Virus genome (UHGV): UHGV-0334807
Strand: one strand, 5' to 3'
Source: a virus
DNA: 42,756 bases
In this document: positions 2,755-37,018 of the stretch, in pieces
Numbering within the stretch: position 1 is the stretch's first letter
Layout of the letters: the number at the start of each line of letters is the position of its first letter
The notes under the pieces: generated by a model
Databases searched by the model: none
What the model was told of the DNA's origin: nothing
Seen by the model: the letters and a program-made list of their open reading frames with translations, nothing else
Made by a program: the position numbers and the translations under genes

Positions 2755-4391
2755 CCCGCCGCAGCTGGTTTATCAAACATCGCGCCACGATTGTACGAAC
2801 TCGCAGCCTGTCTCAGTCCATCGAGCACCCCCGACGCTGCAGATTGTTGTATTGACTGCGGATCTGTCGCACCGACAATATTGATTTCGATTTTATTGTT
2901 TTGCTCCGGCGCAGGTGTCGAGACTGCCTGCTTCAACGTATCAATATTTAACGTCGACGAATCCAGTGCTGCAGGCGCGGTATTTTTATTTACCATCCCG
3001 GATAATGGATTAACAAACGCGAGCATTGATTCTGCCTGAGATTTTGCCTGTTCTTGCCGTTCTGGATGCCGCATATTTTCGACAGCCTCTTCGGCTTTTG
3101 CCTTCGCAATATTATCAGCAGTCAATCCAGCGTTCGGTGAATATTTACCTCCCGAATCCATAAACTCTTGATATGCCCGATTATATTCGTCATTATAAGT
3201 TTTCTGTTCTTCATCTGATTTTTCATCCGGAATAAGCCACTCCAGTTTCTTTACGACAGCCCATATAATCTTCCCGAATTTGACGCAACCTTCTCCAAAA
3301 TTGACGATGCCATCCCACATTTTTTTCATATTTTCTGGTTTTACCCACTCAGTAATTGTGCTGACAAAACCACCCTGATTATCCTTAAACCAGGATGTAA
3401 ATGTTTCACGTACTGAGTCAAACGTCGGCGCGAGTTCCCCCCCGATTTTACCGAGTGTATCTGCAAGTCCCGACGTAATAGAGCCCCACAGATTTGTCAC
3501 TGATACATGCGCACGCGCCGCCCCTTCCGCACCCTCTTTTGTTAACAAATTCGACTTTTGCGCGTCAGACATTGTCTGTTCCCAGCTTTTACCCGTCGCC
3601 TTCATATACGTCATGATCTTATTAGCCTCGCCCCCCATGAGCTGGTCAGCGAGGCTCGCCGCTTGCTTCTCATCTTTCATTTCAGAGATGCGACGCATAA
3701 CCTCATTAAACTGTTTTTCCCGATCCCAGCCAGCCATTCGTTTTTTCGTCAGGCCAATTTGAAATAACATGGGATTCAGGCTTTTTTCGTTTCCGATTTC
3801 GCCGATTTTATTTGTAAGTTCTTCAGACAAATCCCCGATATTTTCGCCGTTCAGGCCCGCGGCTTTACCAATATTTTCCCACGCAGCGTATTTTTCGACG
3901 CCAACGCCGTAGGACTTCGCCAGACCGAGTTTTTCTGACGTCTCTGCATTCATTGCCAGCGCACCAGCTGCAGCACCGCCAATGAGCCCTGCCGCGCCAA
4001 GTGTCCCCCATTTGATACCCCGCCCCGTAGCCCTCACCGCACCTGCGGCGGCTCGTCCGCCCCATTTTGCAGCTCCTTTTGCGCGACCCGTCCACTTCTC
4101 CAGCCGCTGTTTTTTAGCAAGTTGAGTATTCAGCGCCTCCTGGTCCTGCGTTGTCGCTTTTATTCGACGGTCCAGCTTTTGATACTGAGCAGATAAATCA
4201 GAAACGTCTTTACCTGCCAGTTTCATTGCTGCGATTTTGTCTTTTAATTTATCCTGACTTTTCGTTAATTTCCCGACAGTAGACGACGTCTGCCGAATCG
4301 CATCATTGAGTTCTGTTGTACCGCGACGAAACGACGGGTCTATTCGCCCACCGAATACAACCTGCGTTTTAAAGTTTTGAGAAATAGCCAT
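2751..4391 (-). CDS. tail tape measure protein
   Basis: 546 aa, Ala/Gly/Lys-rich with coiled-coil N-terminal region; follows tube and E-like genes. Confidence 0.75.
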   Translation of the reverse strand: MAISQNFKTQVVFGGRIDPSFRRGTTELNDAIRQTSSTVGKLTKSQDKLKDKIAAMKLAGKDVSDLSAQYQKLDRRIKATTQDQEALNTQLAKKQRLEKWTGRAKGAAKWGGRAAAGAVRATGRGIKWGTLGAAGLIGGAAAGALAMNAETSEKLGLAKSYGVGVEKYAAWENIGKAAGLNGENIGDLSEELTNKIGEIGNEKSLNPMLFQIGLTKKRMAGWDREKQFNEVMRRISEMKDEKQAASLADQLMGGEANKIMTYMKATGKSWEQTMSDAQKSNLLTKEGAEGAARAHVSVTNLWGSITSGLADTLGKIGGELAPTFDSVRETFTSWFKDNQGGFVSTITEWVKPENMKKMWDGIVNFGEGCVKFGKIIWAVVKKLEWLIPDEKSDEEQKTYNDEYNRAYQEFMDSGGKYSPNAGLTADNIAKAKAEEAVENMRHPERQEQAKSQAESMLAFVNPLSGMVNKNTAPAALDSSTLNIDTLKQAVSTPAPEQNNKIEINIVGATDPQSIQQSAASGVLDGLRQAASSYNRGAMFDKPAAAG

Positions 4392-21958: not shown

Positions 21959-22422
21959 TATTTCATCCCCTTATCTGATTTCCATAAACGAGCTTGTGAC
22001 ATGATCCGCAACAGTGATGTAACGCTGATTACTGATGCAACCAGTGCACCAATGGCGGGAGAGACTTTTACTGTTACGGGAGGGTTCAGGTGACTCAGCA
22101 CCGCGTTCAGAATACCGGTAATGATGGCTGACGCTGTCTCAGCGCAATACACACCGCCAACAAACGAAATGAGTGCGAAAATAACCTGCTTCCAGAATCG
22201 ATGCTGCCCGGACGACAACACATAGAGAGCTGCGCCTGCCAGCGCACAGATCATCACTGCAGGTGTTGCCTCAGGAAATAACGCAGCAAACGTCACCCCC
22301 GCCGAGCCAGCAGCAACGCCAGCGGTTAGAGGTTCAGACATGATTTTTCCTGATTCAGAAACGACAAAACCCCGCCGTGGCGAGGTTCTTAGAAATTTGG
22401 CAACATACCAAATTAGCGTCAA
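21958..22422 (-). CDS. holin-like membrane protein
   Basis: Multiple TM helices; likely true start MSEPLTAGV at about 22341, preceded by a promoter/terminator pair. Confidence 0.45.
   Translation of the reverse strand: MTLIWYVAKFLRTSPRRGFVVSESGKIMSEPLTAGVAAGSAGVTFAALFPEATPAVMICALAGAALYVLSSGQHRFWKQVIFALISFVGGVYCAETASAIITGILNAVLSHLNPPVTVKVSPAIGALVASVISVTSLLRIMSQARLWKSDKGMK
22356..22385 (-). terminator. tR'-like intrinsic terminator between Q and lysis genes
   Basis: Minus strand CCTCGC-CACG-GCGGGG hairpin followed by TTTTGTCGTTTCTG; a TTGACG/CAAATT promoter-like pair lies about 35 nt upstream (about 22394..22422). Confidence 0.45.
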
Positions 22423-22453: not shown

Positions 22454-23125
22454 TTATACGCAAACGTCGTCTAAATGGTTCTGATAATGATGCAAAGTTG
22501 CAAGAAGTGCCACTTCATCAAGTGCTCTCACCGCCTCTTTCATTCCTACCCAGTGCAGGGAGTATGTTTCGCACCAGGTGGAACGAGAAACCGACAGCAT
22601 TCCTGCTAGGGTAGATCCGGCCATCTCCTTAAAATCCTCGCGTTTATTTGCTGCTGCGACCGCCTGCACGGACAACCACACCAACGAAAGCAGGTGCTTA
22701 ACTACTTTTCTCTGAGTTGACGCGGGGATGTTTCCTTTATAGCGACTCCAGACAGCCTCACAAATAGCTGTTTGGTGTTTGAATGCCAGGTTACCACCGT
22801 AGCAATAACGCAACCACGCTTGCTGACTTGCATCCAGCGAGTTCACAGAACGCCGCCAGGATGAATCAGCAAATTCAAAATCACTCATCGGCGGCGCGGG
22901 GCGACGTCTGCTGAAACTTTCCAGAGCGTAAACTGGCGTAACCAGAGCATCAACGGTCCGGTCCTCCAGCTGCACACGGTGAATATGTTTGCGTGGGTAT
23001 GCGTTTTTGTCTGCCGGTGGGTGCTCACACAATGCTTCCAGTTGCCCCTTAGAACCACCAGACAAATCCCGCAATGCAGCGCGCAGTTTTATGCGGGTAT
23101 ATTCCAATAAATACTCGTTACTCAT
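22454..23125 (-). CDS. late-gene antiterminator Q-like protein
   Basis: 223 aa ORF immediately upstream of the late promoter/terminator and lysis genes. Confidence 0.5.
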   Translation of the reverse strand: MSNEYLLEYTRIKLRAALRDLSGGSKGQLEALCEHPPADKNAYPRKHIHRVQLEDRTVDALVTPVYALESFSRRRPAPPMSDFEFADSSWRRSVNSLDASQQAWLRYCYGGNLAFKHQTAICEAVWSRYKGNIPASTQRKVVKHLLSLVWLSVQAVAAANKREDFKEMAGSTLAGMLSVSRSTWCETYSLHWVGMKEAVRALDEVALLATLHHYQNHLDDVCV

Positions 23126-23418
23126 CAGATAAACTCCTCATCGCGCCAGATAGCCAGTGTTCTGAAAACTCCCTCAGCGTGCATCAACAACAATGAGTCG
23201 TGCTCGTAATCCGTTTTTGTACGTCCGTCGATGGCATCGTGACACGCACTGCAGGCGATAGCGCCCTGCATATCGTGAGGTTTGATGGCTGTGCCGCACG
23301 TTCCGGCGAGACGATAATGAGCCAGTACGCTGGTTTCAGGATTGTGATTGCACACACCGGGGATACGCACAGTACAAGCGCGACTGCGTGCAGCTTTTCT
23401 CAGGTCGATTTTTTTCAT
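23125..23418 (-). CDS. nin-region protein, YbcO-like (DUF1364, putative nuclease)
   Basis: 97 aa with VRIPGVCNHNPETSVLAH...CSACHDAIDGR motif resembling the recalled DLP12 YbcO sequence. Confidence 0.5.
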   Translation of the reverse strand: MKKIDLRKAARSRACTVRIPGVCNHNPETSVLAHYRLAGTCGTAIKPHDMQGAIACSACHDAIDGRTKTDYEHDSLLLMHAEGVFRTLAIWRDEEFI

Positions 23419-24011
23419 GATGTGTAATCCAGCAGCTGCGCGGCGGCATTTTCAGCGGCCTCCTGAGAGGCAAATGTGCGGAACAAAATATAATTCCACA
23501 GCACATCTAAAACGGCTGAATACAGTTGACCGAACTCAAGATCGTCCATCGCTGCAAACGAGATTGAACGAGGTACGCGCATCAAACTGCCGTCTGGCAT
23601 CTGATGAACGTCATAAAACCCAGCTTCCATAATCGCCCATGCGCGAAACGCCTCGAACGACTTCACCGCACTGATACTCCCCGCGCGCTTTTCCGACTCA
23701 TCGAGAAGATACTGATCAGCCAGCTCTGCCATGACATCACCGTGTCCACCGTAATACGCCAGTAACTTAACGTAGCCGTGAACCAGTTCGCGCTCCGCAG
23801 GAGAAATAGCCCCTCCGGACGGATGCCAGTAATCAAAGCCCAGGTTGAGAAGTGAGAAAAATTTACGATGAAACGCGGGATTACGCGCCTGTTTGAAATC
23901 TGCATACACAACAGCACCTGGTTTGACTCGTTCAGTCAACCAGCGTTGCGTGTCTGGTGTCGCGGGTATTAGCGAACCGCCGGATACCCTGATAAATGAA
24001 TGCTGCGCCAT
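23415..24011 (-). CDS. nin-region protein of unknown function
   Basis: 198 aa ORF with GGAG ribosome-binding site; no recognisable motifs. Confidence 0.4.
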   Translation of the reverse strand: MAQHSFIRVSGGSLIPATPDTQRWLTERVKPGAVVYADFKQARNPAFHRKFFSLLNLGFDYWHPSGGAISPAERELVHGYVKLLAYYGGHGDVMAELADQYLLDESEKRAGSISAVKSFEAFRAWAIMEAGFYDVHQMPDGSLMRVPRSISFAAMDDLEFGQLYSAVLDVLWNYILFRTFASQEAAENAAAQLLDYTS

Positions 24012-24088
24012 GGTTAACTCCAGGTGGCGCGGCAGTGTTCAGAAAATGATGCCGGGTGTTCAATCCAGCACCGATATTATACCGTGTT

Positions 24089-24289
24089 TTACGCGTCAGG
24101 GGGTGTAATAGTATATCCAGCTATTTCTGCCAACTCGAGAAACGCCATCAGGCTGGCAATCCGCTCATCATCGGTCAGAACACGCACACCAACGATGTGT
24201 CCGTCCTTACGCTTGATAACAGCCCGGCATGTTTCCGGTAGTTCGCCTATAGATTCTTGAATATTCATGTCTTCCCCCCAATGCCACAA
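24089..24289 (-). CDS. small protein under a LexA-box promoter (candidate SOS-induced antirepressor)
   Basis: Likely start MNIQES at about 24268 with GGGGGAA ribosome-binding site; promoter ATGACA-N17-TATAAA overlaps a LexA box. Confidence 0.5.
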   Translation of the reverse strand: MWHWGEDMNIQESIGELPETCRAVIKRKDGHIVGVRVLTDDERIASLMAFLELAEIAGYTITPPDA

Positions 24290-24290
24290 C

Positions 24291-24306
24291 CTGTATATTT
24301 ATACAG
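24291..24306. promoter_or_regulatory. LexA box (SOS operator)
   Basis: CTGTATATTTATACAG matches CTGT-N8-ACAG with an AT-rich palindromic core; overlaps the -10 of the minus-strand promoter. Confidence 0.7.
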
Positions 24307-24419
24307 TATTTTATGGCATTTGTCATAACGCCAAATACAATGAGGGAATAATGAACAATTATATTCACGTCGTGAATTTTATTAAACGGTTTTATAGGGG
24401 ATTAAACCGTTTATGGTCA

Positions 24420-25097
24420 TTATTTATCACTCCTGTAAATTGGAATTAACCATTTTCTAATCGTCGACGCTGCAGGTGGGTCAGAGTATTTCGCCACAAA
24501 AATACCGGATATGTATTGCACGCCACGCGATAATGGCGCTGTCGGGTTTTCAGTAAAAAAACGATCAGCCAGTTCAATGGCTTCGCTTTTTAATCTGTGC
24601 TGTGGTCGTCCTCCGCCCTTTGTTCCCAGGTATCGCGCCAGTTGTTTGAAACGGTAGGCGATGATTAACGGTCGCATCATCATATTGAAAAAATCGCGGG
24701 CATCGTTGTCAGCGCCTTGCGCTATCAACAGTGCAAAAAACAGATACGGGATTATGTACACTTCAGGAGATATACGAACCCGTTCACAAGTTGGTGGAGC
24801 CAACTCAATAAGTAAGTCAGCCAGCGGATTCCCCTTTTCTCCACGTTTGTAATAGCGATACAGCGGCCCGATATCAAGTTCACTCACGTCGATTTCAGGA
24901 TGCCCGGCAACGACTGTACGTATCTCTTCTGCCAGAGCGTCAAATATTGCCCCGGTCCGTTCAAGATAGAGCCTCCGGGTCGAACCGCGATCATCCAACG
25001 CCCGTAACATATCTAACCGGCTAACGAAAGTTTCAGGCCAGTCCTCATAGAAGGTTTTCATAATTACCTCGAATAATAAAAACTGCACTATTTGCAC
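24420..25097 (-). CDS. hypothetical protein
   Basis: 225 aa ORF (likely start MKTFYEDW); no recognisable motifs. Confidence 0.4.
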   Translation of the reverse strand: MQIVQFLLFEVIMKTFYEDWPETFVSRLDMLRALDDRGSTRRLYLERTGAIFDALAEEIRTVVAGHPEIDVSELDIGPLYRYYKRGEKGNPLADLLIELAPPTCERVRISPEVYIIPYLFFALLIAQGADNDARDFFNMMMRPLIIAYRFKQLARYLGTKGGGRPQHRLKSEAIELADRFFTENPTAPLSRGVQYISGIFVAKYSDPPAASTIRKWLIPIYRSDK

Positions 25098-25872: not shown

Positions 25873-25936
25873 ATGTGGTACGGAACATGCTGTCTATATT
25901 TCAACCAATAATCGTAATGCAGTAACTGGAGGAGCT

Positions 25937-26425
25937 ATGGCTACCAACCCAAGAGAGCACGCCCGGCGAGTGCTGGACACGTTCTGGTGCGGGCGTGGTT
26001 TCCCTGTTGATCCAGCGAAAATTGCTCACGACATGGGATTAGATGTTTTTATTACCGATCTTCCTGGGAAAGTTTCTGGCGCACTGATTAAACAAAAAGA
26101 TCAAGATCCAGCGATCTTTCTAAACAGTGATGACAACAAAGTTCGTCAACGTTTTTCATGTGGGCATGAGTTGGGGCATTACATCGCCCGGCAAGCATCG
26201 CATAGCGATGAATATGAGTACGTTGATTTACGTGGCGAAACCGCAAGCGCCGGAACGCATCCTGATGAAATTTTTGCAAACAAGTTCGCAGCAGAACTTC
26301 TGATGCCGGTAGATGAGGTCAGAAAACTGCACGCTGACGGTCAACCAAGTTATATAATGGCGCATTATTTTGGCGTATCTGACGATGCGATGACTTATCG
26401 TTTAAAGAACTTGAGGTTGGGGTAA
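25937..26425 (+). CDS. ImmA/IrrE-family zinc metallopeptidase (HEXXH)
   Basis: 162 aa with RQRFSCGHELGHY (HEXXH) and FANKFAAELLMP motifs; GGAGG ribosome-binding site. Confidence 0.7.
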   Translation: MATNPREHARRVLDTFWCGRGFPVDPAKIAHDMGLDVFITDLPGKVSGALIKQKDQDPAIFLNSDDNKVRQRFSCGHELGHYIARQASHSDEYEYVDLRGETASAGTHPDEIFANKFAAELLMPVDEVRKLHADGQPSYIMAHYFGVSDDAMTYRLKNLRLG

Positions 26426-26434
26426 CGCTTTAAA

Positions 26435-27040
26435 ATGCCATCGGATGACGATTTTAACAGCCGTTTCAAACAGGAAGTAGCACGCAGACTGAAGGATTCC
26501 CTCAACCTACACCGTCAGTTAGCAGAAGAGGTTGAGCCGGAGGACGATGAAACTCCGGTTCAGTCTCCTGACGAAGCTTCACCTCAGCCAAAGGTTTCGC
26601 ACGCCCCCAAAAAAACGGCTGTCCGTATTCGCGGAATAGCCAGAAAAAGAGCTGCCGAAGCTCGCAAAATGGCTGTAGCTGCGTCTAGCAAAAGAATTCC
26701 AACTGCTACACCCTCTCAACAAGTCACCCGTACTGAGAGTAAAATCTTGACCGAGTTCACATCTGTGAAACAGGTGAATTCACTTGATACCGAGCATGAG
26801 CGCAAACAACTCAACAACAAAGATTTTGAAGCAGAAATCGCTCTAAAAAAACGATACGGGAAATGGTTCCTGATTATCCTTGCTTTCCAACTTCTGATAA
26901 TGAATGGTGTATTTATTGCCGACGGCGCAGGTAAGCTGGAATTTGAGGATTTAACACTACAGTTGTACATGGGCGGTACTTTGACAGAGGTATTCGGCCT
27001 CGTGCTGGTCGTGACAAAATACCTTTTTAAACGCAAGTAA
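26435..27040 (+). CDS. membrane-anchored protein, basic disordered N-terminal region and two C-terminal TM helices
   Basis: 201 aa; starts 10 bp after the peptidase stop (operon); C-terminal WFLIILAFQLLIMNGVFI and TLTEVFGLVLVVT hydrophobic segments. Confidence 0.55.
   Translation: MPSDDDFNSRFKQEVARRLKDSLNLHRQLAEEVEPEDDETPVQSPDEASPQPKVSHAPKKTAVRIRGIARKRAAEARKMAVAASSKRIPTATPSQQVTRTESKILTEFTSVKQVNSLDTEHERKQLNNKDFEAEIALKKRYGKWFLIILAFQLLIMNGVFIADGAGKLEFEDLTLQLYMGGTLTEVFGLVLVVTKYLFKRK
26969..27040 (+). repeat. direct repeat copy 1 (last 23 codons of the 201 aa gene)
   Basis: About 90 percent identical to 30391..30462, which has mostly synonymous changes and a different stop codon. Confidence 0.75.
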
Positions 27041-30486: not shown

Positions 30487-31323
30487 TCAAAATGCTGAAT
30501 TAGCAACGGATATAGCCGACTTTTTCCCCATTACCATCAATTTATCCAGTGTCATACTTCGCAGATTGTCGCTGTGGATCACCAGATACCCTGCCCGCTC
30601 AGCGATCTCTTTGAAAGCGTCAAAGGTCATCAGATGTTCGCCTTTGGCAACATGGCGCATCCCGGTCACTTTTCCATTTTTGATAGTGGTGATAAAAGAA
30701 AAATCTGGAATGGTTGGGTGATTTTCATCGAGTAGCAGGCAGTGGATGTATTCAATCGCCTCTAACATTTGCGTCTGTGACAGTTGTTCTATGTGAGAGA
30801 CGGCGAAGCGTTGATGAATCATGGTGTAGGCATCGGGATACATCATGCCTTTCTTGCCGACCAGTATATTAACGGCATCACGCAAGGGAGTACGGTCATC
30901 GGTAGTTGTACTCCGCCTCTCTGGACGCTGGCTAAAATAACAATCTTCCAGCTTTTCGAAAACTTCCCAGGCCTGTTCTGTTTCCAGCATTTTGGCATGG
31001 CGAGCTGCGCCGCGTTCTGTCCAGAGAATGAGGGATCGGGTATGTTTAGCAACTGACTGACTATCTGTCAGTCTGTTTTTGAAGTCGCGTAATTCATTAC
31101 CTTCCAGCTTAAAAAAATGCTTTCCTACGACAAATCTGGCGATGTTGCGCTTGAAGTTTTGCTGGATACCATTTACTTCCGTGCCATACAAACTGGCAAG
31201 CAATTCAGTAGTGATGACGGGAAGTTGGTTATGATGTAGCGGAGAAAGGGATTCCGCAGATATTTGGACTGTCATCGCAGTGGCCTCACTTAGTGTTTTT
31301 TTCATCACCACCAGCGACGCCAA
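30487..31323 (-). CDS. antirepressor-like protein (ORF6N/AntA-type N-terminal domain)
   Basis: N-terminal region VITTELLASLYGTEVNGIQQNFKRNIARF; probable true start MTVQ at about 31275 with GAGG ribosome-binding site. Confidence 0.55.
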   Translation of the reverse strand: MASLVVMKKTLSEATAMTVQISAESLSPLHHNQLPVITTELLASLYGTEVNGIQQNFKRNIARFVVGKHFFKLEGNELRDFKNRLTDSQSVAKHTRSLILWTERGAARHAKMLETEQAWEVFEKLEDCYFSQRPERRSTTTDDRTPLRDAVNILVGKKGMMYPDAYTMIHQRFAVSHIEQLSQTQMLEAIEYIHCLLLDENHPTIPDFSFITTIKNGKVTGMRHVAKGEHLMTFDAFKEIAERAGYLVIHSDNLRSMTLDKLMVMGKKSAISVANSAF

Positions 31324-35593: not shown

Positions 35594-36070
35594 TCATGCA
35601 TGGTGGTCTTGCGCAGTGCGTATCACTGCTCCTCGCGTCGCTACCAGCGCCGCTATTGCTTCGTCAATTTCCTGAATAGTTAACTCTGGCGCGAAGTGGA
35701 GATGTACAGCGTTAATCGCTTCCACCCCTTCTTTTGCCGCCAGCGTTGCCAGCAAAACGGGATCGCCCGGCGACTCCAGACGTGCCCGCCGTTCTGCGGG
35801 TAGCACGGCTTTCATCACACTGGCCAGCACCTGAGTTTTTCGGCGCGCCGCCGTTGTCTCGCCACGTAACCAGCGAAAGATTTTCTGCCGATTGTTGTTG
35901 ATGGCTCTCCAGTCCACGTTGCCGTCCGCGTCCTCAAATTCATGTAGTCTCAACTCATCATTGCGTCCCTGACTGAACCAGGCCCGGCAGATTTCAATCG
36001 TGACGAGTTCCTGCCCTGCCCTTGCCGCCCAGGTCAAAATCTCTTTTTGTAATTCCTCTTGGTTTTCCAT
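35594..36070 (-). CDS. YdaT-like protein (sits at the lambda cII position)
   Basis: 158 aa; RWLRGETTAARRKTQ...LPAERRARL parallels the recalled Rac YdaT sequence; directly downstream of the Cro-like gene. Confidence 0.5.
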   Translation of the reverse strand: MENQEELQKEILTWAARAGQELVTIEICRAWFSQGRNDELRLHEFEDADGNVDWRAINNNRQKIFRWLRGETTAARRKTQVLASVMKAVLPAERRARLESPGDPVLLATLAAKEGVEAINAVHLHFAPELTIQEIDEAIAALVATRGAVIRTAQDHHA

Positions 36071-36128: not shown

Positions 36129-36395
36129 TTAAGCTGCTTCCGTTTTAGGCAAGCTGTCATCTGGGTTTGGGTAAAGATCCGGTCTAAGATCATGAGGGGT
36201 CACGCGCCATTCAAGAGCTTCAGATGTGCGCAAAACCTCTTCACCGGGAACCCGTCCTTTGAACCAGAGGCTTACCGTTTGTGGTTTTTTCCCTAATCGC
36301 CGCCCTAACTCGGATTGACTCATTACGGAAAGAATTTTGTCTTGCAGTTGTTTATCCATATGGACTCCTTGTGTCCGCGTCATCATTACAAACAA
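36129..36395 (-). CDS. Cro-like HTH regulator (YdaS-like)
   Basis: HTH followed by HDLRPDLYP motif; likely true start MDKQ at about 36349 with AAGGAG ribosome-binding site; divergent from the repressor gene. Confidence 0.6.
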   Translation of the reverse strand: MFVMMTRTQGVHMDKQLQDKILSVMSQSELGRRLGKKPQTVSLWFKGRVPGEEVLRTSEALEWRVTPHDLRPDLYPNPDDSLPKTEAA

Positions 36396-36424
36396 TAACT
36401 GTAATTACAAATTATATTTGCAAT
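36384..36424. promoter_or_regulatory. operator region: two overlapping 21 bp operators in the cro/repressor intergenic region
   Basis: ATTACA-AACAATAAC-TGTAAT (about 36385..36405) and ATTACA-AATTATATT-TGCAAT (about 36404..36424); divergent promoter elements overlap. Confidence 0.5.
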
Positions 36425-36442: not shown

Positions 36443-36871
36443 TTGTATCCTTACGGTATGAACACAAAAACGAAAAACATGGCTTTTGCTAGCCGACTAC
36501 AACGGATTCTAAAAGACTTAGGCTGGTCTCAATCTGAGTTAGCTCGCCATATTGGGGTTACGGCTCAATCAGTTCAGGCATGGTGTAATGGGGTAACTCC
36601 AAGAAAAGATAAATTAGACAAGCTAGCAAAAGTGACCGGATACCCTGTTCATTTTTTCTTCATGAATGAAGGGGAATATTTGGATGAATCCACACTACAC
36701 CCGGGTAATTACAATCAAGAACTAACCCCGCAAGAACAGGCTCTACTGCAACTATTCAGAGGACTGCCTGAGAGCGAAAAAAATAAATTAATCAATGAGC
36801 TAAAAGAAAAAAGAGAGCACTTCGATCTACTGCTAAAAGAACTACTTGAAGCCAAAAACCAGACAAAATAG
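36443..36871 (+). CDS. CI-like repressor, HTH only (no S24 peptidase domain)
   Basis: 142 aa with XRE-type HTH (LGWSQSELARHIGVTAQSVQAW); divergent from cro; start codon uncertain. Confidence 0.65.
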   Translation: MYPYGMNTKTKNMAFASRLQRILKDLGWSQSELARHIGVTAQSVQAWCNGVTPRKDKLDKLAKVTGYPVHFFFMNEGEYLDESTLHPGNYNQELTPQEQALLQLFRGLPESEKNKLINELKEKREHFDLLLKELLEAKNQTK

Positions 36872-36989: not shown

Positions 36990-37018
36990 TTGACCATTAC
37001 AAATACAAATTGTAAAGT
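36990..37018 (+). promoter_or_regulatory. leftward-type early promoter with operator (PL/OL-like)
   Basis: TTGACC, 17 nt spacer, TAAAGT, with a third ATTACA-N9-TGTAAA operator copy in the spacer; downstream of the repressor gene. Confidence 0.45.

What the first reader, a model, noticed from the sequence alone, without database searches (positions are those of the whole stretch)
24089..24306. Near-consensus LexA box over the promoter of a small gene, with a repressor that lacks a cleavage domain
CTGTATATTTATACAG (24291..24306) overlaps the -10 of a minus-strand promoter (ATGACA-N17-TATAAA) for a roughly 59 aa protein of unknown function. The CI-like repressor (36443..36871) is only 142 aa with an HTH and no S24 peptidase domain, so it is unlikely to self-cleave with RecA. 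This matches the established pattern in phage 186 and the Gifsy phages, where a LexA-repressed small antirepressor mediates SOS induction; the small protein here would be a new antirepressor candidate. No strong terminator separates it from the downstream nin genes and Q, so SOS-driven read-through toward Q is also possible.
Basis: partly seen in the sequence, partly recalled or inferred. Interest (0 to 1): 0.65.

Follow-up and report, generated by a model that had tools for sequence, protein, structure and literature searches.

The report
SOS-controlled small antirepressor of an ST131 prophage
A 59-residue prophage gene sits behind a near-perfect LexA binding site and is related to Rem, a small protein that switches off DicA-type phage repressors, so it is very probably how DNA damage wakes this common E. 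coli ST131 prophage; the mechanism is already known from Salmonella Gifsy phages.

Summary
ACCTGTATATTTATACAGTA (24289-24308) is the only LexA-like site in the 42.7-kb prophage: 25 bits against 9.9 for the next best. It covers the -10 hexamer and the predicted start of a minus-strand promoter for a 59-aa gene (24089-24268).

- **The small protein** belongs to PHROG 340, as does E. coli K-12 Rem, the experimentally shown antirepressor of DicA.
- **The repressor** (36479-36871, 130 aa, HTH only) is a full-length homologue of DicA and of Gifsy-2 GtgR. Both of those are inactivated by small antirepressors rather than by cleavage.
- **The next gene downstream** is 56% identical to the Gifsy-2 irsA homologue. 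The small gene therefore occupies the slot that gftA holds in the LexA-controlled Gifsy operon.
- **LexA boxes recur** upstream of diverged homologues (42-76% identity) in unrelated promoter contexts.

The ImmA/IrrE protease and the ORF6N Ant of this prophage are missing from a sibling prophage with the identical repressor, so they are not the core switch.

Verdict: a new, unannotated member of a known kind. No binding, expression or induction experiment exists for this gene.

The parts
24289..24308 (.). LexA (SOS) box ACCTGTATATTTATACAGTA
   Evidence: 25.05 bits, next best site in the window 9.9. The CTGTATA.A.A.ACAG positions are invariant across alleles.
24298..24326 (-). Sigma-70-type promoter: -35 ATGACA (24326-24321), 17-nt spacer, -10 TATAAA (24303-24298). 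Predicted start is near 24291.
   Evidence: Read. The -35 is invariant and the spacer variable in the alignments. The -10 lies inside the LexA box.
24089..24268 (-). 59-aa Rem-family small protein, the predicted SOS-induced antirepressor (WP_001025459.1)
   Evidence: phrog_340 E=1.6e-20. Rem matches the same family at E=4.4e-21. hhalign against Rem gives 88.7% probability, E=2.6e-6. The AF2 model is alpha-beta-beta-alpha with pLDDT 87.7.
24048..24072 (-). Conserved stem-loop with a (C)TGAACA loop between the small gene and the irsA homologue, followed by a weak U tract
   Evidence: Five of 6 pairs show compensatory changes across 8 phages, including Gifsy-2.
23415..24011 (-). DUF1367 protein, homologue of Gifsy IrsA (STM1020)
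   Evidence: Pfam DUF1367 E=6e-78. 56% identity, E=5e-82 to Gifsy-2 STM1020.
23125..23418 (-). YbcO/DUF1364 putative nuclease; its start overlaps the end of the upstream gene
22454..23125 (-). Late-gene antiterminator Q
   Evidence: Pfam Phage_antiter_Q E=8e-38
22366..22389 (-). Strong intrinsic terminator downstream of Q (tR'-like)
   Evidence: 10-pair stem followed by a T run
36479..36871 (+). Prophage repressor, 130 aa, HTH only, DicA/GtgR type (WP_000853106.1)
   Evidence: Pfam HTH_3 only. NCBIfam DicA model matched over its full length but below the cut-off. 31% identity to DicA, E=1e-15. 33% identity to Gifsy-2 repressor, E=5e-23. Shared C-terminal LLxLFxxLPxxEK motif.
36385..36424 (.). 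Two overlapping candidate operators (ATTACA-N9-TGTAAT) between the repressor and the cro-like gene
36996..37016 (.). Third candidate operator (1 mismatch) on the early-left side
36129..36359 (-). Cro-like regulator
   Evidence: phrog_35
35594..36070 (-). YdaT-family (cII-position) protein
   Evidence: Pfam YdaT_toxin E=2e-15
30487..31323 (-). ORF6N-domain Ant-type antirepressor whose C-terminal part (aa 213-254) is a Rem-like domain. It has no LexA box. An accessory, possibly second, antirepressor.
   Evidence: phrog_4792; phrog_340 on aa 213-254, E=4.6e-12. (37% identity to the small protein, E=5e-7). (ORF6N).

Best explanation
The locus is the SOS trigger of a lambdoid-regulated prophage carried by E. 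coli ST131. In the lysogen, host LexA binds the near-consensus box at 24289-24308 and occludes the -10 hexamer and start site of the promoter of a 59-aa gene. DNA damage activates RecA, LexA cleaves itself, and the promoter fires. The 59-aa Rem-family protein accumulates and binds the 130-aa DicA/GtgR-type repressor, which has no peptidase domain and cannot self-cleave. The repressor leaves its operators at 36385-36424 and 36996-37016, and the early lytic operons are expressed. The transcript probably continues into the irsA-like gene, as in the Gifsy operon, and may reach ybcO and Q. Shown here: the site, its strength, uniqueness and conservation; the family memberships of both proteins; the synteny. 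Inferred: LexA binding, SOS induction, the protein-protein contact and its consequence.
For: (1) The LexA box scores 25.05 bits, is the only site in the window (next best 9.9), and overlaps the -10. The matrix recovers the published Gifsy-2 box at 23.7 bits. (2) A box sits upstream of every allele in related E. coli prophages (22.4-28.1 bits), apart from one genome with a 2-bp deletion. Boxes also sit upstream of 42-50%-identical homologues whose upstream DNA is unalignable: L016 23.9, L018 25.6 and L019 17.5 bits. One of four such distant homologues lacks a box. (3) The small protein hits phrog_340 at E=1.6e-20. K-12 Rem hits the same profile at E=4.4e-21. The family profile against Rem gives 88.7% probability, E=2.6e-6. 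Rem derepresses the DicA-controlled dicBp 165-fold (PMC10448788). (4) The repressor aligns end to end with DicA (E=1e-15) and with the Gifsy-2 repressor (E=5e-23). Gifsy repressors are not cleaved; they are bound by small LexA-controlled antirepressors encoded outside the immunity region (PMC3121763). (5) The next gene downstream is 56% identical to Gifsy-2 STM1020, the irsA homologue that follows gftA in the LexA-regulated operon. K-12 rem and a GenBank-annotated 'rem prophage antirepressor - irsA - ybcO - q' string occupy the same position. (6) All five prophages where both the small gene and the immunity region could be seen have a 121-133-aa HTH-only repressor with the same C-terminal motif. 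(7) A sibling prophage (ETEC1738) has the identical repressor protein and keeps the LexA-boxed small gene, but has neither the ImmA/IrrE gene nor the ORF6N Ant.
Against: No experiment exists for this gene. There was no literature hit for WP_001025459 and none for EC958 prophage SOS induction. BLASTP finds no pairwise similarity to Rem or GftA, so the link to Rem rests on profile methods, and the link to GftA is not significant. The one characterised family member, the 83-aa Rem, has no LexA box in K-12 Qin or in phages mEp460, PPompW and a Rac-like element. [quoted passage not shown] LexA control is therefore not a family-wide property. The ETEC1738 prophage pairs the identical repressor with a 76%-identical allele of the small protein, so the variable N-terminal half is not obviously a specificity determinant. 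The predicted fold has no match among solved structures.
Confidence: 0.8

Rival explanations
1. The LexA-controlled promoter mainly drives the downstream irsA-like, ybcO and Q genes, so that SOS turns on late genes and lysis directly. On this reading the 59-aa product is incidental or has another role.
For: There is no canonical intrinsic terminator between the small gene and Q; only a hairpin with a short interrupted U tract. DUF1367, ybcO and Q overlap start to stop. In Gifsy phages irsA belongs to the LexA operon.
Against: Q expression without repressor inactivation and replication would kill the host without producing phage. The small ORF is conserved as protein, with profile-level family membership. 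The stem-loop between the genes is conserved with compensatory changes, which suggests regulated passage rather than free passage. This reading is compatible with the best explanation as an added layer, not a replacement.
Confidence: 0.08
2. The 59-aa protein is an SOS-induced accessory factor with a different target, such as a modulator of RecA or LexA like DinI, or a host-physiology or toxin-like moron. Repressor inactivation would then occur by some other route.
For: Prophage SOS operons do carry such genes, for example dinI in Gifsy. There is no direct evidence of repressor binding. Pfam and NCBIfam give no annotation.
Against: There is no DinI or other domain hit even at E<=10. The family contains Rem, whose only known activity is antirepression of a homologous repressor. 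The same domain forms the C-terminus of an Ant-type antirepressor in this prophage. No other SOS input into the prophage is detectable.
Confidence: 0.07
3. The repressor is inactivated by the prophage's ImmA/IrrE-family metalloprotease (25937-26425), as ImmA cleaves ImmR in ICEBs1 and phage phi105.
For: A Peptidase_M78 protein with an HExxH motif is encoded in the prophage. A 2-mismatch operator-like sequence lies just upstream of it at 25898-25918.
Against: The gene is about 10 kb from the repressor, not adjacent as in ImmR/ImmA pairs. It lies in a variable moron block on the opposite strand. Related prophages replace that block with GmrSD/DUF262 genes, and one of them carries the identical repressor protein. 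It has no LexA box.
Confidence: 0.03
4. The 278-aa ORF6N Ant (30487-31323) is the real antirepressor, and the small gene is a redundant fragment-like paralogue.
For: It has strong matches to PHROG families annotated as anti-repressor, and it carries a Rem-like C-terminal domain.
Against: There is no LexA box near it; the best nearby site, at 31191-31210, scores 9.9 bits and is inside the ORF. It lies within the repressed early operon, so it cannot start induction. It is absent from the ETEC1738 sibling with the identical repressor.
Confidence: 0.02

Closest known systems
Rem of the E. coli K-12 Qin prophage (antirepressor of DicA; Ragunathan et al. 2023, PMC10448788)
   Same: Both fall in the same profile family (phrog_340, both about 1e-20; hhalign 88.7%). 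Both share the C-terminal motif SLxAxxExxxxAG[YF]. Both sit just upstream of the DUF1367/ydfU-Q block. The cognate repressor is a DicA homologue.
   Different: Rem is 83 aa, this protein 59 aa, and the two show no BLASTP-level similarity. Rem follows hok/mok and has no LexA box in K-12 or in functional phages. dicBp is not induced by mitomycin C. This protein has a near-consensus LexA box.
GfoA/GfhA/GftA of Salmonella Gifsy-1/-3/-2 (LexA-controlled small antirepressors; Lemire et al. 2011, PMC3121763)
   Same: The logic is the same: a short non-cleavable HTH repressor (33% identical to the Gifsy-2 repressor), a small antirepressor encoded far from the immunity region, a LexA box over its promoter, and an irsA/DUF1367 gene immediately downstream (56% identical) ahead of the nin/Q genes.
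   Different: No significant sequence similarity to GftA was found: hhalign gives about 5% probability, and GftA hits phrog_340 only at E=0.23. There is no dinI homologue at the head of the operon. The protein is 59 aa rather than 73 aa.
Tum of coliphage 186 and AntC of N15 (LexA-controlled antirepressors)
   Same: These are also SOS-controlled antirepressors acting on non-cleavable repressors (as summarised in PMC3121763).
   Different: Tum is 146 aa with a DinI-like C-terminal half, and no DinI-like domain is detectable here. Both belong to different phage types, P2-like and N15. Direct comparison with the Tum and AntC sequences was not run.
P22-type Ant / ORF6N-KilAC antirepressors
   Same: The Ant of this prophage carries a Rem-like C-terminal domain homologous to the small protein.
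   Different: Ant proteins are large and multidomain, and are not LexA-controlled here. The small protein is the isolated domain.

Membership tests
Rem family of small prophage antirepressors (PHROG 340; Pfam PF27490 'Rem') | Significant match to the family profile that contains K-12 Rem | tested here: met
   phrog_340 E=1.6e-20 over residues 1-58. Rem matches the same profile at E=4.4e-21. hhalign of the 16-sequence alignment against Rem gives 88.7% probability, E=2.6e-6 over 48 columns.
Rem family of small prophage antirepressors (PHROG 340; Pfam PF27490 'Rem') | Match to the Pfam model PF27490 | tested here: inconclusive
   The local Pfam copy returned nothing for this protein or for Rem itself, so that model is apparently not in the copy. 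Precomputed hits mark homologues P0009 as faint and P0011 as weak for PF27490.
Rem family of small prophage antirepressors (PHROG 340; Pfam PF27490 'Rem') | Gene located just upstream of the DUF1367 (irsA/ydfU)-Q block, in a prophage with a DicA-type repressor | tested here: met
Rem family of small prophage antirepressors (PHROG 340; Pfam PF27490 'Rem') | Derepresses the promoter controlled by the cognate repressor when expressed | not testable with these tools
   Needs a reporter assay like the one in PMC10448788.
Gifsy-type LexA-controlled antirepressor system (Lemire et al. 2011) | Short HTH repressor homologous to GfoR/GtgR/DicA, without an Ala-Gly cleavage site or S24 domain | tested here: met
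   Pfam HTH_3 only, 130 aa. E=5e-23 to the Gifsy-2 repressor and 1e-15 to DicA, both full length.
Gifsy-type LexA-controlled antirepressor system (Lemire et al. 2011) | Antirepressor gene outside the immunity region, with a LexA box over its promoter | tested here: met
   The gene is 12.2 kb from the repressor. The box scores 25 bits and covers the -10. It is conserved in homologues.
Gifsy-type LexA-controlled antirepressor system (Lemire et al. 2011) | Operon dinI - antirepressor - irsA | tested here: inconclusive
   The irsA homologue is present directly downstream (56% identity). No dinI homologue is present. Co-transcription was not testable.
Gifsy-type LexA-controlled antirepressor system (Lemire et al. 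2011) | Sequence homology of the antirepressor to GfoA/GftA/FsoA | tested here: not met
   BLASTP gives no alignment. hhalign gives 4-5% probability. GftA belongs to phrog_4847 and hits phrog_340 only at E=0.23. The published chain from GfoA to Rem needed an intermediate sequence.
Gifsy-type LexA-controlled antirepressor system (Lemire et al. 2011) | Antirepressor binds the repressor and releases it from DNA, and the repressor is not cleaved | not testable with these tools
   Needs pull-down, gel filtration, EMSA and a western blot.
Lambda CI / LexA-type self-cleaving repressors | C-terminal S24 peptidase domain with a Ser/Lys dyad and an Ala-Gly site | tested here: not met
   No Peptidase_S24 hit. 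The protein is 130 aa. No S24 protein is annotated anywhere in the prophage.
ImmR/ImmA (IrrE-type protease) induction modules | Metalloprotease gene adjacent to and co-inherited with the repressor it cleaves | tested here: not met
   The ImmA-like gene is about 10 kb away in a swappable block. It is absent from a prophage with the identical repressor.
Tum (phage 186) type antirepressors | About 146 aa with a DinI-like C-terminal half | tested here: not met
   The protein is 59 aa, with no Pfam hit at E<=10 other than noise. Direct comparison with the Tum sequence was not run.

The most novel reading that the evidence does not exclude
The Rem fold may be a portable repressor-binding module that this prophage uses twice. 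One copy would be a stand-alone, tightly LexA-repressed trigger (24089-24268). The other would be the C-terminal domain of the ORF6N Ant (30487-31323), expressed only after derepression, where it could lock in the decision or cross-induce co-resident DicA-type prophages. In addition, the SOS promoter may read through a conserved (C)TGAACA-loop RNA element into irsA, ybcO and Q, coupling DNA damage directly to late-gene antitermination. That would add a feed-forward layer to the known Gifsy scheme. It would also explain why K-12 Rem, which has lost or never had the LexA box, no longer responds to SOS.
Probability: 0.2. Interest if true: 0.55.

Novelty: new member of a known kind. Interest (0 to 1): 0.38.

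Why it matters
The prophage region is present in 449 of 5426 complete E. coli genomes, mostly from the pandemic ST131 lineage (EC958, JJ1886). Its induction switch gene is annotated only as 'hypothetical protein'. Assigning it as the SOS-controlled antirepressor gives a single small target for making the prophage non-inducible, as has been done for Gifsy-2, or inducible on demand. It also links the K-12 Rem/DicA pair to the SOS-wired Gifsy paradigm through an intact phage. Finally, it predicts possible cross-talk among the several DicA-type prophages that E. coli strains carry. It does not reveal a new principle.

Tried and rejected
1. Pairwise BLASTP of the small protein against Rem and GftA found nothing. 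Only profile methods link it to Rem.
2. Homology to Gifsy GftA was not significant with a single sequence or with a 6-sequence profile.
3. The structure route led nowhere. The AF2 model is confident (pLDDT 87.7), but Foldseek against the PDB gave no hit below E=0.49.
With a 5-sequence alignment it returned only 2 loci.
5. I tested whether the palindrome ATTCACGACGTGAAT upstream of the promoter is a repressor operator. It does not resemble the operators at 36385-36424 and has no other good copy in the window.
6. I looked for co-variation between small-protein alleles and repressor alleles. The 76%-identical allele pairs with the identical repressor, so there is no specificity signal at that distance.
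7. I expected LexA boxes upstream of the 83-aa Rem in intact phages. None was found.
8. Literature searches for the protein accession, the matching phage record and EC958 prophage induction gave nothing relevant.
9. Distant homologues in Stx phages lie in the early-left operon of phages annotated with a 'phage repressor protein CI', and have no LexA box. They are not informative for this locus.

Full report
**What the window is.** The 801 bases around the finding are 100% identical to chromosomal prophages of E. coli ST131 strains (EC958, JJ1886 and many others). They occur in 449 of 5426 complete E. coli genomes, always on the chromosome. The RefSeq annotation of EC958 shows a prophage integrated next to a tRNA-Leu/Cys/Gly cluster, pgsA and uvrC. 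It has contractile-tail (sheath, tube, baseplate) morphogenesis genes and a lambdoid regulatory layout. On the plus strand lie the repressor, then early-left genes, then integrase. On the minus strand lie a cro-like gene, a YdaT-family gene, replication genes, a variable accessory block, the small gene in question, then DUF1367, YbcO/DUF1364, Q, lysis genes and head and tail genes.

**Checking the observation.** CTGTATATTTATACAG is at 24291-24306. The bare pattern CTGT-N8-ACAG is not rare enough to mean anything alone: 0.37 matches are expected, and 29 of 100 shuffles had at least one.

- I scored the window with a LexA weight matrix built from 28 E. coli SOS boxes. The boxes were recalled from memory from the Lewis 1994 and Fernandez de Henestrosa 2000 compilations, so the matrix is approximate.
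- The 20-mer ACCTGTATATTTATACAGTA (24289-24308) scores 25.05 bits, above 26 of the 28 training sites. The second-best site in 42.7 kb scores 9.9 bits. The best site in 200 shuffled windows averaged 12.0 bits and never exceeded 20.9.
- As a positive control, the same matrix picks out the published LexA box in front of the Gifsy-2 dinI homologue at 23.7 bits (PMC3121763).
- On the minus strand the sequence reads ATGACA (24326-24321), 17 nt, TATAAA (24303-24298). The -10 lies wholly inside the box, and the predicted start near 24291 lies at its edge. A G-rich ribosome-binding site and ATG 24268 follow.
- The tool's own promoter scan missed this promoter because it insists on a T at the last -10 position.
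- The ORF from ATG 24268 gives 59 aa, matching RefSeq WP_001025459.1, 'hypothetical protein'.
- The repressor has only an HTH_3 domain.

**Conservation of the site.**

- In related E. coli and E. whittamii prophages carrying 56-76%-identical or identical alleles of the small protein, the -35 hexamer and the CTGTATA.A.A.ACAG positions are invariant. The promoter spacer and the 5' half of the coding region have diverged. Box scores there are 22.4-28.1 bits.
- One genome (L005) has a 2-bp deletion inside the box.
- Three of four more distant homologues (42-50% identity, from metagenomes and another genome) have upstream DNA that cannot be aligned to the window. Each still carries a LexA box upstream of the gene: 23.9, 25.6 and 17.5 bits, the only strong site in each locus. 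The fourth (L017) has none and sits next to a divergent HTH gene.

Recurrence in unalignable promoters is the best computational evidence that LexA control is selected for.

**What the small protein is.**

- Pfam and NCBIfam give nothing.
- PHROGs places it in phrog_340 ('unknown function') at E=1.6e-20.
- A full HMMER search of 1.8 billion representatives found only 16 relatives, mostly 59-66 aa. They share an ASLxAFLELAxxAGY helix.
- E. coli K-12 Rem (83 aa, Qin prophage) matches the same PHROG profile over the same columns at E=4.4e-21. The family alignment aligns to Rem residues 32-79 with 88.7% probability, E=2.6e-6.
- Rem was shown to act as an antirepressor of DicA, increasing dicBp expression 165-fold. 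It was originally found by iterated searches starting from the Gifsy antirepressor GfoA (PMC10448788).
- Precomputed Pfam labels on two homologues name a family 'PF27490: Rem', marked weak and faint.
- BLASTP alone sees no similarity to Rem or to Gifsy-2 GftA. Profile comparison with GftA is not significant.
- The AlphaFold model is a confident helix, beta-hairpin, long helix (pLDDT 87.7). It has no counterpart among solved structures.

**What the repressor is.** The 130-aa protein aligns over its whole length with DicA (31% identity, E=1e-15) and with the Gifsy-2 repressor (33%, E=5e-23). It shares their C-terminal LLxLFxxLPxxEK motif. Lemire et al. showed that Gifsy repressors are not cleaved on induction. 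[quoted passage not shown] The same paper named DicA and RacR as members of this repressor group. Candidate operators (ATTACA-N9-TGTAAT) lie between the repressor and the cro-like gene at 36385-36424, and on the other side of the repressor gene at 36996-37016.

**Synteny.**

- The gene immediately downstream of the small gene (23415-24011, DUF1367) is 56% identical (E=5e-82) to Gifsy-2 STM1020. STM1020 is the irsA homologue that follows gftA in the LexA-regulated dinI-gftA-irsA operon. The small gene therefore occupies the gftA slot, and the operon here lacks dinI.
- K-12 rem sits at the equivalent place, upstream of ydfU and the Q homologue ydfT.
- A GenBank record of a Rac-like element annotates the string 'rem (prophage antirepressor) - irsA - ybcO - q'.
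- In all five prophages where I could see both a small-gene homologue and the immunity region, the repressor is a 121-133-aa HTH-only protein of this type, next to a P22_Cro/YdaS-like gene and a YdaT gene.

**Alternatives inside the prophage.**

- An ImmA/IrrE-family metalloprotease (25937-26425) could in principle cleave the repressor. It lies in a variable block on the opposite strand. Relatives replace that block with GmrSD/DUF262 genes, and one of them, the ETEC1738 prophage, carries the identical repressor protein WP_000853106.1.
- A 278-aa ORF6N Ant-type protein (30487-31323) has a C-terminal segment (aa 213-254) homologous to the small protein. It has no LexA box, lies within the repressed early operon, and is also absent from ETEC1738. 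It may be a second, post-derepression antirepressor, but it cannot be the trigger.
- No other LexA site and no S24 protein exist in the prophage.

**Read-through.** Between the small gene and the irsA homologue there is a hairpin (24072-24048) followed by AUUUUCU. It does not meet the terminator criteria of the scan. The U tract is absent in several relatives. The stem varies with compensatory changes while the loop (C)TGAACA stays nearly constant across eight phages, including Gifsy-2. Co-transcription with irsA is therefore likely, as in Gifsy. DUF1367, ybcO and Q overlap start to stop. A strong terminator appears only after Q, at 22389-22366. Whether SOS transcripts reach Q is open.

**Mechanism proposed.**

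1. LexA occludes the promoter in the lysogen.
2. RecA-stimulated LexA cleavage frees the promoter after DNA damage.
3. The 59-aa protein binds the repressor, probably dimer to dimer as for GfoR-GfoA.
4. The repressor leaves its operators, and the cro-side and early-left operons fire.

Because the box is close to consensus, derepression should need strong or sustained SOS signalling. This follows from the established relation between LexA-box quality and the timing of SOS gene induction, and it is an inference. Steps 1-2 rest on the site's position, strength and conservation. Steps 3-4 rest on homology to Rem/DicA and on analogy with the Gifsy system. None of the steps is demonstrated for this locus.

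**A distinction worth recording.** The characterised 83-aa Rem subgroup has no LexA box in K-12 Qin, phage mEp460, the PPompW prophages or the Rac-like element; there rem always follows hok/mok. [quoted passage not shown] The short 59-66-aa subgroup described here is the LexA-wired branch of the family. It combines a Rem-type protein with Gifsy-type control and position. I found no paper describing this.

**Verdict.** The element is a new, currently unannotated member of a known kind: LexA-controlled small antirepressors acting on DicA/Gifsy-type repressors. It is useful for annotating and manipulating a prophage common in ST131, but it is not conceptually new. Confidence in the mechanism is about 0.8, and interest is moderate to low.

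Noticed in passing
window 30487-31323 (-): An ORF6N-domain Ant-type antirepressor carries a C-terminal segment (aa 213-254) homologous to the 59-aa protein (37% identity, E=5e-7; phrog_340 E=4.6e-12). The prophage therefore encodes the Rem-like domain twice, once stand-alone behind a LexA box and once fused to an Ant N-terminus without one.
   Followed up: partly
window 24048-24072 (-); also L010 (Gifsy-2) about 11716-11738, plus L013, L016, L018, L019: A stem-loop between the antirepressor gene and the irsA/DUF1367 gene has a nearly invariant (C)TGAACA loop and stems that change in a compensatory way (5 of 6 pairs) across eight phages. It is not a canonical terminator, and its function is unknown. 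It could be a processing, attenuation or nut-like site.
   Followed up: partly
window 24358-24385 (-) and 24363-24377: A second, better-scoring promoter-like element (TTAATA-16-TATAAT, 10 of 12) lies about 55 bp upstream of the LexA-covered promoter. A perfect palindrome, ATTCACGACGTGAAT, sits in its spacer. The palindrome arms are conserved in most relatives but do not resemble the repressor operators. A transcript from here would have to pass the LexA-bound site.
   Followed up: partly
window 24384-24412: An inverted repeat AAACGGTTT / AAACCGTTT lies just after the stop of the upstream 225-aa gene (24420-25097, phrog_5215, unknown function). The region folds better than shuffled sequence (z = -3.5). 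This recalls the terminator-like palindromes that precede the LexA boxes in Gifsy phages.
   Followed up: partly
window 25937-27040 (+): An ImmA/IrrE-family metallopeptidase is followed by a 201-aa protein of unknown function, in an accessory block on the opposite strand. Sibling prophages have GmrSD/DUF262 genes in place of this block. A 2-mismatch copy of the repressor operator motif lies at 25898-25918, just upstream of the peptidase gene.
   Followed up: partly
L005 about 3963-3980 (GCA_053634315.1): One E. coli genome has a 2-bp deletion inside the LexA box (CTG--TATATATACAG). This would break the half-site spacing. It could be a naturally deregulated antirepressor or an assembly error.
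   Followed up: no
L009 (K-12 Qin), L022 (mEp460), L023 (PPompW), L024 (Rac-like MN652886): The 83-aa Rem subgroup always lies just downstream of a hok/mok-gef cassette and its terminator, and it has no LexA box even in functional phages. How rem itself is turned on remains unexplained.
   Followed up: partly
L021 (E. coli ETEC1738, NZ_CP122768.1): This sibling prophage has the identical repressor protein (WP_000853106.1) but a 76%-identical allele of the small protein. The differences are concentrated in the N-terminal 40 residues. An IS3 element is inserted in the early region.
   Followed up: partly
L012 (NZ_MVAG01000097.1, 279 bp): A 279-bp, 0.73x-coverage contig in a Chryseobacterium mucoviscidosis assembly contains this E. 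coli prophage's LexA box and the first 14 codons of the small gene. It is almost certainly contamination.
   Followed up: no
L010 (Gifsy-2) 45544-45563: A 26.1-bit LexA-like site (AACTGTTTGTATATACAGTA) lies near the right end of the Gifsy-2 record. It is separate from the known dinI-operon box at 11080.
   Followed up: no
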